A stretch of 63,950 nt of DNA, counting the filler, from Dirinaria sp. TL-2023a (taxonomy: Eukaryota), in NCBI GenBank assembly GCA_051941275.1. It is 4 parts of 4 records of this genome, joined end to end, with 100 filler letters (N's around TTAATTAATTAA, not from the genome) between each part and the next. Parts side by side here need not be neighbours in the genome. Positions count along the whole stretch, not along the records: positions 32,865 to 49,179 come from JAVEBF010000497.1; 3 more parts are not named here. The stretch is one strand, 5' to 3'. A program made the position numbers and the translations under genes. Positions 33,577 to 37,754 of the stretch are shown here, piece by piece; the stretch's first letter is position 1, and every line of letters starts with the position of its first letter. Below the pieces are notes generated by a model. That model did no database searches. It was not told the origin of the DNA and was given only the letters and a program-made list of their open reading frames with translations.

Positions 33577-34744
33577 TCAATGATCCTCGTGACCATGCTG
33601 CGGCCCCTCAGCAGCCCCAATAGCATCCCCCTTGCCATCCGGATACGCCGGACCAAGCGTCGGATGCACCAGTCCCAGGCTGAACATGTCCACGGTATTC
33701 TTCCTCGTCCAGTCTGCGATTTTTTCCCAATTGACGCATTCATGGGCGGTGGCGCTCGCGACTGGGAGACGGCTCGTCTCGGTCCATTTGAATGTTATGA
33801 GGCCGATGTCCCCGTGGCACATGGCGGCTTGGCGAAGGAAGTCGATGCAGTGCTCTGGTTTAATTTGGAGACGTGTTAAATAATTACTCGATGTATGTGA
33901 CAAGGAGAGAGAGAGAAGGGGTGGAGCGAAAGGGGTGTTTACCGCTGTGTATCCGGTTCATCTCTTTTTGCTGTGGGGTGCTGTTCGCGAAATAATAGTC
34001 GTGGTACATGTACTGGTGAAGGCGTTTCTGGAAGAGCAGCATTGAAAAGTTGAGAAGTGGAGAATGTGGAGGAAAGGAGGGGCAGATTTACAAGGCAGTG
34101 TAGCTCGTGGTACATGTTGATTGTGCCCACATATCCAGAGCCGTCCGGGATTGCTACACCATTGTCTTCTCGTCCGTAATGCTTCATCACTTCCCGTGGA
34201 AGACGGATGTTCTCATCTGCATCAAGTGGTTAGCGCTAGGACCCAAGTATTATAGAGGTCTGTGGGTAAGGAGGCTCACTGTTAAGAAGATTGTGCCATG
34301 CAAGGTCAAGCTCAGGGGTCGGATGTCCCACGTAACTGCTGAACTCCTGAATTCGGTCTCCGAGCGTGAACTCGTGCTCTTCATATGAAATCGCTTCCTG
34401 TGCCGGTGCTGTGCTCATCAGTCAGGTCACCTTCTGAGGCATCAGAACTCCCTTTACTCACAGTAGACCAGGCCGGGCCCTTTCAGACGGCGAGCGCTGG
34501 CATACGAGGACGCCACCCCGTAGAGGAGGAAGAGGTAGAAGAAGAAGATCAGAGTATGGATAAATATCAGAGTACCATATCTTTTCGAAATTGAAACATT
34601 TTCTGGTAACCTGATGGAGTTCTTCTCTAATAGACTATCTGAAGAGTCTGATACTTCGTCTTCTTCTGACGAGGTCCTTGCTGGTACGTAGCGGAACTTC
34701 TCATCAGCCTTGCTTCTGACTGAATAGTTGAACAGTGCAGCCAT
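33577..34744 (-). CDS. UstYa / DUF3328 family oxidase (dikaritin RiPP macrocyclase-type), 299 aa, 5 exons (34744-34462, 34408-34280, 34216-34092, 34027-33943, 33854-33577)
   Basis: N-terminal TM anchor (TLIFIHTLIFFFYLFLLYGVA), YSPA, ELDLAWHNLL, twin HXXHC motifs YHELHCL and IHSEHCIDFLRQAAMCHGD, then HECVNWEKI. All splice sites are GT..AG and the exons sum to 900 nt. Confidence 0.95.
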
Positions 34745-37272
34745 GATCAGCTTGCTCTTTTGGTGGACTGGAAGAAGCTGAGATGGAGAAATAAGAAATC
34801 AAGAGTGGGTCGCTCGTAGGAAGACAAGAGCTAAGGAATGATACAGGAAAGCGCCGTGCTGTCTCGGAAATATGTACAGACCCGTATCTCAGTCTGCGTC
34901 CAGCCCTCCGAGACATGCAGACAGGTCTAGACTAAGGTCCTTACATGTCTTCTCGGAGGACATGTGGTGGTGGCAAACCAATGGCTCTTGCCAGCAGGAG
35001 CTCATGTTGAGTGTGGTATGCTCGTGATCCATTGTACGATCATTCTAGCTTATCTTCACTCGCATCGAAACTGCTCTGCTTTTAGCTCCAAATACTGGGG
35101 AAATGTATTGTCCGCTTCTGCTTCACCGCAAACTTCTGCCATGCCATGCACGATATTGCTCGTTCCACTGAGTTTACGGAGCAGCACATGTGTATCGTGG
35201 CATCTCGTTTTTTGTTTCACCACATACCTGCGGGATTAAAACGCCTTATTGTATTTGGCGCTCCTTGCATCAACATATTCGCGCTGCATTGTAGTCTGCA
35301 TATTACCCTTGTGTGTACAGTACACACCACACACCGCTAGACGTGGGGACATCCTTGTAGTCAGCACTAAATTCTGCTGAGTAGATCAGTAGGTATGCTC
35401 TGATGTGAGGTAAGATAGGTTCCATGCTCTGTCGTCCTTTGAGATATTAGGCCCAGGTCGCAGTTCGGATTAATTGGTAAAACAATGCCCATGAAAGCCT
35501 TGGTTTGTGGGTTCCAATGCTCCTGCAAGTTTGTAGAGCAAGACCTACTGCAGTCATACTTCGTCGAATGTTTCTTCCAATACTTGCTCACAACTTGAGA
35601 GCACGAGTCCACTCATAAAGCATAGTAGTTGAATTGCCCATGTTTGGTGGGTGAGCTGATTCTACGCGCTGATAGGATCATCTGGTTCATCTTTGATGAA
35701 CCATTAAGAAGAATCAGCAGTGGAAAAGGGTCATCTCGACACACACTCAGTGTAAGTACTGTTTTCATTGTACGCATATAGCTCTAAGTGCTTTGCCTAC
35801 CCTTCCATATCTTGCGGCTTCTTCAGAGCGTCCTTTCCCTTAAAGTCCTCGTATTCCTGCACAAGTCAAATCGCTTAGACTTTCAGCTTCAATTGCTGAG
35901 TACACTTCCCTGCCTCAGGTCTTGCGTCTGTCTTCAATAGATTTAACCTCATCTGACCGTTAGTAGTACGCGAAAGTGAAAGATGTATACTCTTAATGAT
36001 GTCTCTGAACAACGTCTCTCATTCGTGGCCAATGAAAGCAAGAGGCTGATATGCTCGTGGTCGCTGCGAAAGAGATGAGATCGCGGGTAACACCGAAAAA
36101 AGACTTGAACAATCTCCGTGCATTCGAGATGCATGAACTGCGCATGCATCAGGACGGAAGCGACTAGGTTGTGGTATTGACACCGTCTCTTCAAGATGTC
36201 GTGTGGTATGGATGATGTTGCGGTGATTGTTGTACTTTACTGATCACGGAATTACATAAGCTGCAGATATCACCTACGACGATGCACTAAGCAGCGTACA
36301 GTGCTAGGCGCTGCAGCTATCACACCGCCTTAAAACTGTGGGTATAATACTTGCGCTGGAGCTTGACACGTGCCGGCAGTCTTTTGAATAATGCACTGAC
36401 GGCGGATGGAGTTCGGGGAGACGCAGCTGCTAGATGTCAGCTATGCTGTGCTTTTGCCAGCACGCTAATAGCCGCATCGGCTTCATGCCTAGAATGGAAA
36501 GTACAGTAAGGAGTGGCAGGAGCGAGTATTGGACAATAATAATTCAATTCAAGTATGCAACGCCAAGACTGGGATACTCCTAGATCGTCTTGGCGTGCTT
36601 GGCAAACTAGCTTCTTGTCAACCACCACAACGTCCAATGATGACTTGAAAACCTCCGTGAAACCAATGCAGCTTCCCAGTTGATGTTTAAGACAGGTGCA
36701 ATGAAGTTGCGGTGGGTTCTCGTCGGCAGTGGTTAGTCTCAACCACAATTCAGCCTGGAAAATTGTCTGGACTTGTCCAGCGTAGAGAGTAACTTTTCGC
36801 TAGCTTTGTGTGAGTGATTGCTCTATGGGACGGCATCGAGTTCCCCCTTTTTTTTATTTGGTATAAGTTTTTATTGTTCTCAACTCCCTATCGAGCGCGT
36901 ACAGCCATTTGTTTCGTTCATTGTGTATCCAATGGCAGAATTTCAATGAACAGACAGAGAAAATGGCATCATTTGGTTCAGTATGCTTCAATCTCTACCT
37001 CCTATCCCCAAACTAGTGCAGCAATACATTGATATCACCGTCTCACAATGGAGGTCAGGTTGCATTCTTCTCGTGCCGCGCCATACTATACGTGTAGATG
37101 AGCACTGCCTCGGGAATCTGCTTCCGATGATCCACACGCATCTGCAGAGAAGCTCCAATCTTGGCGTAGAGCAAAGTATTCCATGAACTAAACTACATGT
37201 ACTGTACTATCATCTGCTTTTATTACGATCACCTACTATGGCTCGATCAGGCGAGTCTAGAAGAGTATTGTC

Positions 37273-37278
37273 TATAAA
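37273..37278 (+). promoter_or_regulatory. Putative TATA box of the precursor gene
   Basis: TATAAA about 130 nt upstream of ATG 37404, followed by a pyrimidine/CA-rich leader. Confidence 0.5.
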
Positions 37279-37403
37279 GGAGCTCAAATTTTCCATTTCA
37301 TTGTCTTCCGCCATCAATTTACTCCAGCACATCAACTATTCATTGCTCATCAGCGCCAATCGTTCCTCCACGCTCAATCTCGGACAAGTTCAATACCGCG
37401 GCC

Positions 37404-37754
37404 ATGCATTGGTCCACTGTTGTCAGCCTCCTTCCTCTACTTGCGGCTTTGACCGCTGCAGCGCCAATGGTTGCGGGAGGTATCGCGCCGATTGCTCGAG
37501 CGGCTGATGCTGACACAGCTTCTGTCTACCCCGTGGATAAGGTTGGAACTTCCGTCCTCATGTATCAACAGCTTCTAACAACCTAGCGCGCCGACGCCGA
37601 CGCTGCTACTGTCTACACGGTTGACAAGAGAGCCGACGCGGATACCGCATCCGTCTACGCAGTAGACAAGAGGGCCGACGCTGATACCGCATCTGTCTAC
37701 GCTGTTGATAAAAGGGCCGACGCGGACACCGCCACCGTCTACTCCACTGACTAA
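37404..37754 (+). CDS. Secreted Kex2-processed repeat protein (KEP) / RiPP precursor, 101 aa, 2 exons (37404-37541, 37587-37754)
   Basis: Signal peptide MHWSTVVSLLPLLAALTAA. After splicing a 45-nt intron (GTTGGA..CTAAC..CTAG) it reads ADADTASVYPVD-KR-ADADAATVYTVD-KR-ADADTASVYAVD-KR-ADADTASVYAVD-KR-ADADTATVYSTD*. The 42-nt repeat units diverge mostly at synonymous sites. Confidence 0.93.

What the first reader, a model, noticed from the sequence alone, without database searches (positions are those of the whole stretch)
33577..37754. Candidate new dikaritin-type fungal RiPP system: divergent UstYa/DUF3328 oxidase and Kex2-repeat precursor
Seen: an intact 5-exon DUF3328 gene with two HXXHC motifs, and 2.66 kb away on the opposite strand a 101-aa secreted protein of five KR-separated Tyr-containing repeats. 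Established: ustiloxin, phomopsin and asperipin-2a are made from such signal-peptide/KR-repeat precursors (UstA, PhomA, AprA), with DUF3328 enzymes (UstYa/Yb, PhomY, AprY) forming Tyr aryl-ether macrocycles. Inference: this pair makes a cyclic peptide. The repeat matches none of the cores I know (YAIG, YVIPID, FYYTGY), so the product is probably undescribed.
Basis: partly seen in the sequence, partly recalled or inferred. Interest (0 to 1): 0.92.

Follow-up and report, generated by a model that had tools for sequence, protein, structure and literature searches.

The report
Lichen-fungus repeat peptide with copper oxidase
A lichen fungus carries an intact gene pair, a secreted protein made of five short tyrosine-containing repeats and a membrane copper oxidase, which belongs to a widespread but chemically uncharacterised family of fungal ribosomal peptide clusters and survives here in a stripped-down form.

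Summary
The minus strand holds a 5-exon, 299-aa UstYa/DUF3328 gene (33577-34744) with HELHC and HSEHC motifs. The plus strand, 2,660 bp away and divergently oriented, holds a 2-exon, 101-aa precursor (37404-37754): a signal peptide plus five units ADAD(T/A)A(S/T)VYx(V/T)D, separated by four KR sites.

The pairing is not chance. Precursor homologues with units x-D-A-D-x-A-[T/S]-x-Y-x-[V/A]-[D/G]-(K/R)R occur in 23 metagenome loci and about 15 database proteins. All 10 loci with at least 2 kb upstream (5 lineages) carry a UstYa homologue in the same divergent arrangement.

Relatives have larger clusters: OPT transporter, sedolisin peptidase, MFS transporter and a conserved unknown protein. The window keeps only a stop-containing MFS fragment between the two genes, so it is a reduced cluster.

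No tyrosinase or methyltransferase was found. This points away from a ustiloxin/phomopsin-type route and towards an asperipin-like, single copper oxidase route.

The family probably equals KEP type G-6 of a 2020 survey. No product or paper on the motif was found. Verdict: a real new member of the dikaritin kind. The chemistry and current activity are unproven.

The parts
33577..34744 (-). UstYa/DUF3328 copper-oxidase gene. It has 5 exons (34744-34462, 34408-34280, 34216-34092, 34027-33943, 33854-33577) and encodes 299 aa. The layout is an N-terminal tail, a membrane helix around residues 59-77, then a luminal domain with HELHC (174-178) and HSEHC (206-210).
   Evidence: Gene model. Collinear homologue alignments. 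PF11807 on exon ORFs. In the L001 orthologue the exons align without gaps, with exon identity 73-81% against 56-63% for introns, and codon-position differences of 50/41/114. Invariant His/Cys residues are kept and the hydropathy maximum is 2.31.
34745..37403 (.). Shared 2.66-kb divergent intergenic region. It is a collapsed counterpart of the 6.7-kb cluster interior of locus L001.
   Evidence: tblastx gives collinear small blocks: 34994-35056, 35145-35217, 35424-35472, 35602-35692, 36782-36856, 36957-37010 and 37049-37150, matching L001 3152-9234 in the same order. None of the 53 ORFs of at least 60 aa scanned across 30.7-41.5 kb, this region included, has a Pfam hit above its cut-off.
35602..35691 (-). 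Pseudogene fragment of the MFS transporter that lies between the oxidase and the precursor in L001-L003.
   Evidence: tblastn finds 18 of 30 residues identical to the L001 MFS N-terminus, E 2.4e-7, with an in-frame stop codon in the window copy. blastn gives 71.9% over 89 nt.
35424..35472 (.). Possible remnant of the cluster sedolisin gene. The call is weak: the match is only 15-16 residues.
   Evidence: The tblastx block matches L001 4424-4472, inside the sedolisin ORF 3851-5584. It is seen only as part of the collinear chain. tblastn with the whole sedolisin found nothing significant in the window.
37271..37287 (+). Conserved promoter block TCTATAAAGGAGCTCAA (TATA-like), about 125 nt upstream of the precursor ATG.
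   Evidence: 17 of 17 bases are identical to L001 in an otherwise roughly 70% identical alignment.
37404..37541 (+). Precursor exon 1. It holds the signal peptide (hydrophobic core TVVSLLPLLAAL), a short pro-region, and unit 1 as far as ...VYPVDK.
   Evidence: The N-terminus is nearly the same in P0042, P0002 and L001.
37542..37586 (+). Precursor intron, 45 nt, sitting between the K and R codons of the first KR site.
   Evidence: It has GT..AG ends, a CTAAC branch site and an in-frame TAG at its end. L001 has an intron at the same position with similar sequence. Splicing restores both the KR site and the repeat phase.
37587..37754 (+). Precursor exon 2. It begins with the R of the first KR site and continues with units 2-5 (ADADAATVYTVDKR, ADADTASVYAVDKR twice, ADADTATVYSTD) and the stop codon.
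   Evidence: The 42-bp tandem array lies at 37611-37742.

Best explanation
The two genes are the substrate and the modifying enzyme of a dikaritin-class ribosomal peptide (RiPP) pathway in a lichen-forming ascomycete.

**Shown**
- An intact secreted multi-unit precursor.
- An intact UstYa/DUF3328 gene with every family-invariant His and Cys.
- Divergent linkage of the two genes, conserved in five other lineages.

**Inferred mechanism**
1. The 101-aa precursor enters the ER through its signal peptide.
2. In the ER/Golgi lumen the membrane-anchored oxidase uses its HxxHC...HxxHC site and O2. This follows CctR, where the site binds two copper ions. The oxidase activates a C-H bond near the invariant Tyr of each unit, guided by the invariant D-A-D-x-A stretch.
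3. The most likely outcome is a Tyr side-chain ether macrocycle. The partner residue would be either Val/Thr at Y+2 or Ser/Thr at Y-2.
4. Kex2 cuts after KR and a carboxypeptidase removes K and R. The peptide therefore ends at the Asp three residues after Tyr, which is exactly where the last unit ends before the stop codon.
5. In relatives, a cluster sedolisin probably trims the conserved 6-residue N-terminal spacer. That would leave about six residues: SVYPVD, TVYTVD, SVYAVD (twice) and TVYSTD here.

This locus has lost the sedolisin, the MFS exporter, the OPT transporter and a conserved unknown gene that accompany the pair elsewhere. It would have to rely on unlinked genes for those steps.
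For: **Gene models and family assignment**
-. In a 35-sequence alignment, H174, H177, C178, H206, H209, C210, C220 and C247 are at least 95% conserved and all are present in the window protein.

**Precursor family**
- P0002 and 30 representatives with E up to 1e-3, 7 of them up to 1e-10.
- Of the 21 sequences I read, about 15 are signal peptide plus the same unit.
- 23 metagenome loci.
- Profile over 96 distinct units: D, A, D, A and Y invariant, T/S at Y-2 in 93 of 96, V in 76 and A in 14 of 96 at Y+2.

**Linkage**
- 10 of 10 loci with at least 2 kb upstream have a UstYa homologue upstream on the opposite strand.
- The survey in PMC7329392 counts 9,399 DUF3328 genes in 1,461 strains, about 6 per genome (passages). 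Repeated adjacency by chance is therefore negligible.

**Selection**
- Synonymous differences between units exceed non-synonymous ones.
- For the oxidase against its L001 orthologue, exons are more conserved than introns and third codon positions carry the excess of changes.

**Conserved features of the precursor gene**
- The intron position and the promoter block are shared with L001.
- In most complete KR-type precursors the last unit ends at Y+3 directly before the stop: window, L001, L010, L012, L016, P0002 and P0042.

**Enzymology of the family**
- CctR is a membrane-anchored, homodimeric, O2-dependent enzyme that binds two copper ions per monomer at the HxxHC motifs, and the cyclase AprY is reported as copper-dependent too (PMC12435403, abstract and passages).
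- The dikaritin definition comes from PMC9233826 (passages).
Against: - **No expression data.** No sequencing run could be listed and no whole genome is held for the window.
- **Accessory genes are missing.** The sedolisin, MFS, OPT and conserved unknown protein are absent, and the MFS survives only as a fragment with a stop codon.
- **Few units.** The window precursor has 5 units. L001 shows 13 by the motif regex, in one open frame that omits its first two exons.
- **Faster change in the window oxidase.** It carries more lineage-specific amino-acid changes than its L001 orthologue in all 8 outgroup comparisons: 14 v 9, 28 v 14, 34 v 7, 20 v 11, 21 v 10, 25 v 11, 18 v 15 and 16 v 10. p is below 0.05 in 4 of the 8, and two of those four outgroups may not be true outgroups. 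This fits mildly relaxed constraint.
- **No tyrosinase.** It is needed for ustiloxin and phomopsin cyclisation.
- **Y+2 is not always beta-branched.** It is Ala in 14 and Gln in 1 of 96 units, so the cross-link partner is uncertain.
- **Unit 1 is out of register.** In the window it has one extra residue after the Arg (R-A-ADAD...), which does not fit strict tripeptide trimming.
- **DUF3328 enzymes also catalyse other reactions.** Hydroxylation, halogenation and others are known, so cyclisation is an analogy.
Confidence: 0.65

Rival explanations
1. The pair is a decaying remnant. It descends from a working RiPP cluster, but after losing the peptidase, the transporters and a possible regulator it no longer yields a product. 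The two open frames have simply not yet been disrupted.
For: - The MFS survives only as a 30-residue fragment with an in-frame stop.
- The window's 2.66 kb between the two genes matches L001's 6.7-kb cluster interior only as small collinear blocks.
- The sedolisin, OPT and the conserved unknown protein of L001, L016 and L021 find nothing in the window.
- The window precursor has only 5 units.
- The window oxidase has more lineage-specific substitutions than L001's in all 8 of 8 comparisons.
Against: - Both genes are fully open with canonical splice sites.
- All invariant His and Cys residues are kept.
- The promoter block and the intron are conserved.
- Differences between units are mostly synonymous.
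- Short precursors with 2-4 units exist in relatives, for example P0042 and P0041.
- Asperipin-2a is reported to need only one DUF3328 enzyme (PMC7329392, passages), and Kex2-type processing is housekeeping.
Confidence: 0.2
2. The oxidase does modify the repeat peptides, but not by macrocyclisation. It might hydroxylate, halogenate or dehydrogenate them, so the products are linear modified peptides.
For: - DUF3328 enzymes are documented as hydroxylases (CctR) and halogenases (ApnU) as well as cyclases (PMC12435403, passages).
- They also occur outside RiPP pathways (PMC12048977, section 22).
- No fixed beta-branched partner residue exists at Y+2.
Against: - Every characterised DUF3328 enzyme that is paired with a Kex2-repeat precursor takes part in side-chain macrocyclisation: ustiloxin, phomopsin, asperipin, victorin and epichloecyclin (PMC9233826, passages).
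- Tyr is the one invariant side chain in the variable half of the unit (96 of 96).
Confidence: 0.1
3. The repeat protein is an ordinary Kex2-processed secreted peptide precursor (pheromone- or hormone-like, unmodified), and the oxidase is an unrelated neighbour.
For: - 78% of the 7,878 Kex2-processed repeat proteins surveyed have no DUF3328 gene nearby (PMC7329392, passages).
- The Atlas feature search with the homologue P0041 listed an alpha-factor cluster at rank 4 with score 0.82, which is below the level the tool treats as meaningful.
Against: - Linkage and orientation are conserved in 10 of 10 testable loci, 5 lineages, with oxidase identities from about 35% to 80%.
- Exon 2 has no MF_alpha Pfam match.
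- The units hold no Trp or Cys pheromone motif.
Confidence: 0.03

Closest known systems
Asperipin-2a system (precursor AprA with a single DUF3328 cyclase AprY), Aspergillus flavus
   Same: - A signal peptide plus KR-separated Tyr-containing repeats.
- Only one DUF3328 enzyme and no tyrosinase (PMC7329392 passages; PMC9233826 passages).
- AprY is reported as copper- and O2-dependent (PMC12435403 passages).
   Different: - The core is different. The unit here is x-D-A-D-x-A-[S/T]-x-Y-x-V-D with a single Tyr, so the bicyclic Tyr-Tyr topology is impossible.
- Sequence relatedness of the two oxidases could not be measured, because no AprY sequence was available to me.
Ustiloxin (UstA, UstYa/UstYb, tyrosinase UstQ) and phomopsin (PhomA, PhomY) clusters; KEP type G-10 (Y-x-I-x core)
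   Same: - A secreted KR-repeat precursor and a PF11807 oxidase.
- A Tyr followed two residues later by a mostly beta-branched residue (V in 76, T in 3 and I in 1 of 96 units). This resembles the Tyr-Ile pair that is cross-linked in these toxins (PMC7329392 passages).
   Different: - No tyrosinase or methyltransferase was found in the window or in the loci of relatives.
- Y+2 is Val/Ala rather than the near-invariant Ile of type G-10.
- There is one oxidase instead of two to five.
- Relatives carry a sedolisin, an OPT and an MFS instead.
KEP type G-6 (number 13) of Umemura 2020 (PMC7329392)
   Same: - The type is described as rich in Y with several D in the profile.
- 46 of its 49 members have a DUF3328 gene nearby.
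- Its 19 genera include Rhynchosporium, Histoplasma, Paracoccidioides, Cordyceps and Aspergillus, which also appear among the homologues of the window's oxidase.
   Different: - Identity of the two families is inferred, not shown. The type's sequences and logo are not in the text or in the held supplements.
- No Lecanoromycete genus is in that list.
- The survey assigns no product.
Epichloecyclins (GigA with GigB/GigC and KexB) and victorin (VicA, VicYb)
   Same: Multi-core Kex2-processed precursors whose cores are cyclised through an aromatic side chain by DUF3328 proteins. In epichloecyclins the partner residue lies N-terminal to the Tyr, as it would for the conserved Ser/Thr at Y-2 here (PMC9233826 passages).
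   Different: The core sequences and lengths differ. No kexin gene or copper amine oxidase is present in this cluster family.
CctR, the cyclochlorotine hydroxylase (biochemically characterised DUF3328)
   Same: The window protein shares the N-terminal tail, the single membrane helix, the HxxHC(x)nHxxHC motif and the further conserved Cys residues.
   Different: CctR acts on a non-ribosomal cyclic peptide and hydroxylates it. No precursor gene is associated with it.

Membership tests
DUF3328 / UstYa (Pfam PF11807) | Match to the family profile above Pfam's gathering score | tested here: met
   Exon ORFs score 70.7, 31.0 and 30.4 bits against a cut-off of 25, and a fourth piece scores 14.1. All are collinear on profile positions 48-220. 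The spliced protein itself could not be submitted to the tool.
DUF3328 / UstYa (Pfam PF11807) | HxxHC(x)nHxxHC motif | tested here: met
   HELHC lies at 174-178 and HSEHC at 206-210. All six residues are at least 95% conserved among 35 aligned homologues. The motif definition is from PMC12435403.
DUF3328 / UstYa (Pfam PF11807) | N-terminal disordered tail followed by a single membrane helix, with a luminal catalytic domain | tested here: met
   The Kyte-Doolittle 19-residue maximum is 2.31, at residues 59-77 (LIFIHTLIFFFYLFLLYGV). Topology is inferred by analogy with CctR. No topology predictor was available.
DUF3328 / UstYa (Pfam PF11807) | Binuclear copper site, disulfide-linked homodimer, O2 dependence | not testable with these tools
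   Only the ligand residues and the conserved Cys220 and Cys247 can be seen. No structure or complex prediction was run.
Dikaritin-class fungal RiPP system | Precursor with an N-terminal secretion signal | tested here: met
   The hydrophobic core TVVSLLPLLAAL has a KD12 of 2.32. Homologues share the same N-terminal layout. No signal-peptide predictor was available.
Dikaritin-class fungal RiPP system | Several copies of a core peptide flanked by Kex2 (KR) sites | tested here: met
   Five units and four KR sites. A 42-bp tandem array.
Dikaritin-class fungal RiPP system | DUF3328 gene close to the precursor gene, as a conserved association | tested here: met
   The genes are 2,660 bp apart in the window. 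All 10 of 10 related loci with at least 2 kb upstream, 5 lineages, show the same divergent pair.
Dikaritin-class fungal RiPP system | Side-chain macrocyclised peptide product | not testable with these tools
   No chemistry or expression data. No sequencing run could be listed.
Ustiloxin/phomopsin subtype (KEP type G-10) | Y-x-I-x core with conserved Ile, and a tyrosinase in the cluster | tested here: not met
   Y+2 is V (three units) or T (one), not I, in the four of the window's five units that the motif regex counted; by eye the fifth, terminal unit ADADTATVYSTD has S at Y+1 and T at Y+2. Across the family Ile is at Y+2 in 1 of 96 units. No tyrosinase hit was found among the ORFs scanned: 61 of the 87 window ORFs of at least 110 aa, 53 of 61 ORFs of at least 60 aa in 30.7-41.5 kb, and 81 of 152 ORFs from loci L001, L018, L005 and L021.
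KEP type G-6 (number 13) of PMC7329392 | BlastP relatedness to members of the type | not testable with these tools
   Member sequences are not in the held text or supplements. The only support is the description (Y plus several D, 46 of 49 with DUF3328) and the overlap of genera.
Alpha-factor-type mating pheromone precursors | MF_alpha / MF_alpha_N profile match; no DUF3328 gene nearby | tested here: not met
   Exon 2 has no MF_alpha hit at E up to 0.1, and a DUF3328 gene is adjacent.

The most novel reading that the evidence does not exclude
The window belongs to an uncharacterised dikaritin subclass spread across Pezizomycotina, from lichen fungi to Cordyceps and possibly the dimorphic Onygenales.

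In this reading, Kex2 releases 12-residue pieces. A cluster-encoded sedolisin removes the invariant six-residue spacer (x-D-A, D-x-A) as two tripeptides. A single copper UstYa enzyme, with no tyrosinase, ties the invariant Tyr to a neighbouring residue. The result is cyclic hexapeptides of the form [S/T]-x-Y-x-V-D.

The lichen locus would then be a working two-gene minimal version that borrows unlinked proteases and exporters.
Probability: 0.2. Interest if true: 0.6.

Novelty: new member of a known kind. Interest (0 to 1): 0.45.

Why it matters
**An explicit precursor in a lichen fungus.** A 2025 survey of 111 lichen-fungus genomes found many HXXHC 'dikaritin signature' genes. It found no repeated precursor in its two conserved clans (PMC12048977, abstract and sections 16 and 22). 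This locus gives an explicit precursor and oxidase pair in a lichen fungus. The window's Atg22 ORF is 100% identical to a protein that NCBI names as a Dirinaria sp. metagenome-assembled genome.

**A defined motif and cluster for a widespread family.** The related loci define a conserved unit, D-A-D-x-A-[S/T]-x-Y-x-V-D-K-R. They also define a recurrent cluster of oxidase, sedolisin, OPT, MFS and an unknown protein. I found no product or paper for this family.

**A clean test case.** If the chemistry is solved, it would add a tyrosinase-independent cross-link type made by a single copper DUF3328 enzyme, and possibly a first role for a sedolisin in RiPP maturation. The two-gene window version would test whether one oxidase and one precursor suffice.

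**Limits on the surprise.** 1,758 Kex2-repeat precursors with DUF3328 neighbours are already catalogued, so a specialist would see a good lead rather than a new principle.

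Tried and rejected

- No sequencing run was listed for 33400-37900, so there is no evidence either way on expression.
- No whole genome is held for the window. I could not look for an unlinked sedolisin, MFS, OPT or regulator.
- Earlier-findings look-ups returned nothing on this genome or sequence. The word search gave only unrelated bacterial repeat-peptide notes. None was used.
- The Atlas search on the conserved unknown protein gave no usable hit. P0001 is not held. 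P0041 gave only scores of 0.81-0.86, below the tool's level of meaning.

**Weak hits I dismissed**
- The DUF6150 match of exon 2 scores 21.7 bits, under the cut-off of 27. I treat it as a low-complexity artefact.
- The conserved unknown protein (L001 12289-13323) has no Pfam match even at E up to 1.

**Literature**
- Six motif strings found only 3 unrelated papers.
- Four motif strings are absent from the held supplements of PMC7329392, which turned out not to hold the KEP sequences.
- None of the 25 papers listed, of 80 that hold at least two of the five terms, combines DUF3328/UstYa with sedolisin/tripeptidyl.
- Two further searches showed no newly characterised dikaritin with this motif among the rows listed.
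- The Ding et al. 2016 phomopsin paper is not held under the DOI or the PMC number I tried. The PMC number was recalled and may be wrong. Its list of 27 predicted precursors could bear on novelty, and I did not see it.

- My first ATG coordinate for the precursor and for the oxidase were each off by one. I corrected them.
- Alignment A1 of whole precursors was too gappy for the locus search. I replaced it with A2.

**Steps not run**
- Structure and complex predictions were not run. They would not have decided between the readings.

Full report
**1. What is in the sequence**

The oxidase gene lies on the minus strand.
- Four PF11807 homologues from other fungi align collinearly to five blocks between 34744 and 33577.
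- I enumerated GT..AG combinations from the ATG at 34744. Eight models were open. Only one reproduces the homologues' sequence across every junction (GLVYSPAQEA, NLLNNENIRL, HELHCLKRLHQ, NRIHSEHCIDF).
- That model has exons 34744-34462, 34408-34280, 34216-34092, 34027-33943 and 33854-33577. It encodes 299 aa, with introns of 53, 63, 64 and 88 nt.
- Pfam places the exon ORFs on UstYa profile positions 48-94, 94-137, 138-166 and 162-220, in that order.
- The protein has a hydrophobic helix at residues 59-77, HELHC at 174-178 and HSEHC at 206-210. The second motif exists only after intron 4 is spliced out.
- All His and Cys positions that are at least 95% conserved among 35 aligned homologues are kept.

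The precursor gene lies on the plus strand.
- The ATG at 37404 opens a 46-codon exon that ends ...VYPVDK.
- A 45-nt intron follows (GTTGGA...CTAAC...TAG). Exon 2 (37587-37754) then continues with R-ADAD...
- Splicing therefore restores both the KR site and the repeat phase, giving 101 aa with five units and four KR sites.
- Tandem Repeats Finder sees the 42-bp array.

**2. Real genes rather than chance**

- Units 3 and 4 encode the same 14 residues but differ at 6 codons, all synonymous. Units 1 and 3 differ at 10 synonymous codons and 1 non-synonymous codon.
- Against the orthologue in locus L001, the oxidase has no gap in any exon. Exon identity is 73-81% and intron identity 56-63%. Differences by codon position are 50, 41 and 114.
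- L001 shares the precursor's intron position and sequence, and a 17-nt TATA-like block at 37271-37287.

**3. The precursor belongs to a family**

- A word-indexed search restricted to longer proteins found one relative, P0002.
- The exhaustive representative search found 30 proteins with E up to 1e-3 and 7 with E up to 1e-10.
- I read 21 of them. About 15 are a signal peptide followed by the same unit. The rest are unrelated repeat proteins.
- A scan of metagenome contigs with alignment A2 returned 23 loci. Their open frames show 3 to 19 units each.
- I pooled 96 distinct units from 29 sequences. Two of these sequences, P0048 and P0053, gave none because their motif differs.
- The pooled profile is x-D-A-D-[A/T/S]-A-[T69 S24 I3]-x-Y-x-[V76 A14 T3]-[D65 G15 S8]-[K/R]-R.
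- In most complete KR-type precursors the last unit stops exactly at Y+3. This fits a mature C-terminus at that residue once K and R are removed.

**4. Linkage**

- I ran tblastn with the window's oxidase against the 23 loci.
- Ten loci have at least 2 kb upstream of the precursor match: L001-L003, L005, L007, L014, L017, L018, L020 and L021. All ten have a UstYa homologue upstream on the opposite strand, as in the window. By repeat sequence they fall into five lineages.
- The hits in L007 and L014 are partial because the contig ends there.
- The other 13 loci have under 1.8 kb upstream and none shows a hit. L011, with 1,741 nt, is the longest of these.
- No locus has an oxidase downstream of the precursor, even where 7-10 kb is available.
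- With about six DUF3328 genes per genome (9,399 in 1,461 strains; PMC7329392, passages), repeated adjacency is not chance.

**5. The larger cluster, and what the window has lost**

I scanned 81 of the 152 ORFs of at least 90 aa from L001, L018, L005 and L021 against Pfam. I dropped frames nested in longer frames and the part of L021 that duplicates L018.
- L001 reads OPT transporter, oxidase, sedolisin (Pro-kumamolisin activation domain plus S8/S53 domain), MFS transporter, precursor.
- L018 reads two oxidases, precursor, a CDH-cytochrome-domain protein, sedolisin, P450.
- The two sedolisins are 43-45% identical to each other.
- Fused gene models in Cordycipitaceae combine PF09286 with PF11807 (P0027) and PF03169 with PF11807 (P0031, P0036). 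These point to the same neighbours. That is an inference from probable annotation fusions.
- A 345-aa protein without any Pfam match recurs beside the cluster in L001, L016 and L021.

In the window none of these genes is present.
- tblastn with all of them gave only a 30-residue match to the MFS N-terminus at 35602-35691. It has 18 identities, E 2.4e-7 and an in-frame stop.
- tblastx shows seven small blocks in the 2.66-kb spacer, collinear with L001 3152-9234. One block lies inside the sedolisin frame.
- Pfam found no further enzyme among 53 of 61 ORFs of at least 60 aa in 30.7-41.5 kb. The eight I dropped hold N-runs or overlap the two genes.
- It also found none among 61 of the 87 window ORFs of at least 110 aa.
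- The flanking genes are unrelated housekeeping or cell-wall genes: a prenyltransferase beta subunit, a LysM protein and a GH18 chitinase.
- The window's oxidase has more lineage-specific residues than L001's in all eight outgroup comparisons, significantly so in four. This is compatible with somewhat relaxed constraint, or with a generally faster lineage.

**6. Mechanism**

Established for the family:
- DUF3328 proteins are membrane-anchored, disulfide-linked homodimers. Their HxxHC(x)nHxxHC motifs bind two copper ions per monomer (measured for CctR).
- They use O2 and electrons to attack C(sp3)-H bonds. CctR hydroxylates. AprY (a cyclase) and ApnU (a halogenase) are reported as copper-dependent too (PMC12435403, abstract and passages).
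- Dikaritin precursors are Kex2-processed in the secretory pathway and cross-linked through an aromatic side chain (PMC9233826, passages).

Inferred here:
- The oxidase recognises the invariant D-A-D-x-A stretch and cross-links the invariant Tyr.
- The partner is either Y+2 (mostly Val, as in the Tyr-x-Ile of ustiloxin) or the conserved Ser/Thr at Y-2.
- No tyrosinase is present in the window or in the relatives' loci. A phenol-oxygen ether of the asperipin kind is therefore more plausible than the ustiloxin route.
- The six-residue spacer and the recurrent sedolisin suggest removal of two tripeptides.
- This last step is speculative. Unit 1 of the window has one extra residue, and some L007 units carry an extra E-P.

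**7. Comparison with the literature**

- KEP type G-6 (number 13) in PMC7329392 has 49 members in 19 genera, and 46 have DUF3328 nearby. It is described as rich in Y with several D (Table 2 and passages).
- Its genera overlap those of the oxidase homologues. It is probably this family.
- I could not see its sequences.
- I found no characterised product. See the searches under Tried and rejected.
- The lichen survey PMC12048977 found signature genes but no repeated precursor in its two clans.
- The window's Atg22 ORF is 100% identical to a protein that NCBI names as a Dirinaria sp. MAG (Caliciaceae, Lecanoromycetes).

**8. Verdict**

The functional pairing is well supported by conserved linkage. 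Cyclisation and present-day activity are unproven. This is a new member of the dikaritin kind, from a widespread but chemically unexplored precursor family, preserved here as a reduced two-gene locus.

Noticed in passing
L001:12289-13323 (+); L021:1368-2405 (+); L016:1449-1712: A roughly 345-aa protein with no Pfam match even at E up to 1 recurs beside the precursor/oxidase cluster in three lineages. Identity is 32% between L001 and L021 (E 7e-16) and 50% to L016. It has a conserved block of the form R-[IV]-L-x-x-[IV]-E-E-x-G-F-x-S-x-D and no signal peptide is evident, so it may be a pathway regulator. It is absent from the window.
   Followed up: partly
window 41136-43020 (-) and 44119-46488 (+): A LysM-domain protein lies next to a GH18 chitinase with a chitin-binding domain. 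This is a pairing common in fungi and appears unrelated to the peptide genes.
   Followed up: no
window 9354-14355 (+): Two long adjoining open frames of 982 and 692 aa have no Pfam match at E up to 1e-3. They may be one large uncharacterised protein.
   Followed up: no
window 16344-16443, 32765-32864, 49180-49279: Six 44-base runs of N occur in three pairs, spaced about 16.4 kb apart. They look like masked stretches rather than assembly gaps. The middle pair lies about 700 bp beyond the 3' end of the oxidase gene.
   Followed up: no
L018:3399-4497 (-), 6853-8301 (-), 11861-13396 (-): In the L017/L018/L020/L021 lineage the cluster has a second, distant UstYa paralogue (25-31% identical to the window protein), a CDH-cytochrome-domain protein and a P450. 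Its units end in single R or RR instead of KR. This suggests more elaborate chemistry and a different processing site.
   Followed up: partly
L005:3-932 (+): A 310-aa open frame beyond the oxidase gene gives weak, sub-threshold matches to trichodiene synthase and terpene synthase profiles (18.4 and 13.8 bits).
   Followed up: no
window 29277-30898 (-), 23578-24777 (-), 52740-53381 (-), 56803-58888 (-), 60493-63876 (+): The flanking genes are housekeeping: a prenyltransferase beta subunit, a mitochondrial calcium uniporter, a STIMATE-family protein, Atg22 and Med14. The peptide pair therefore sits in an otherwise ordinary region, flanked by about 2.6 kb and 3.3 kb without recognisable genes.
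   Followed up: partly
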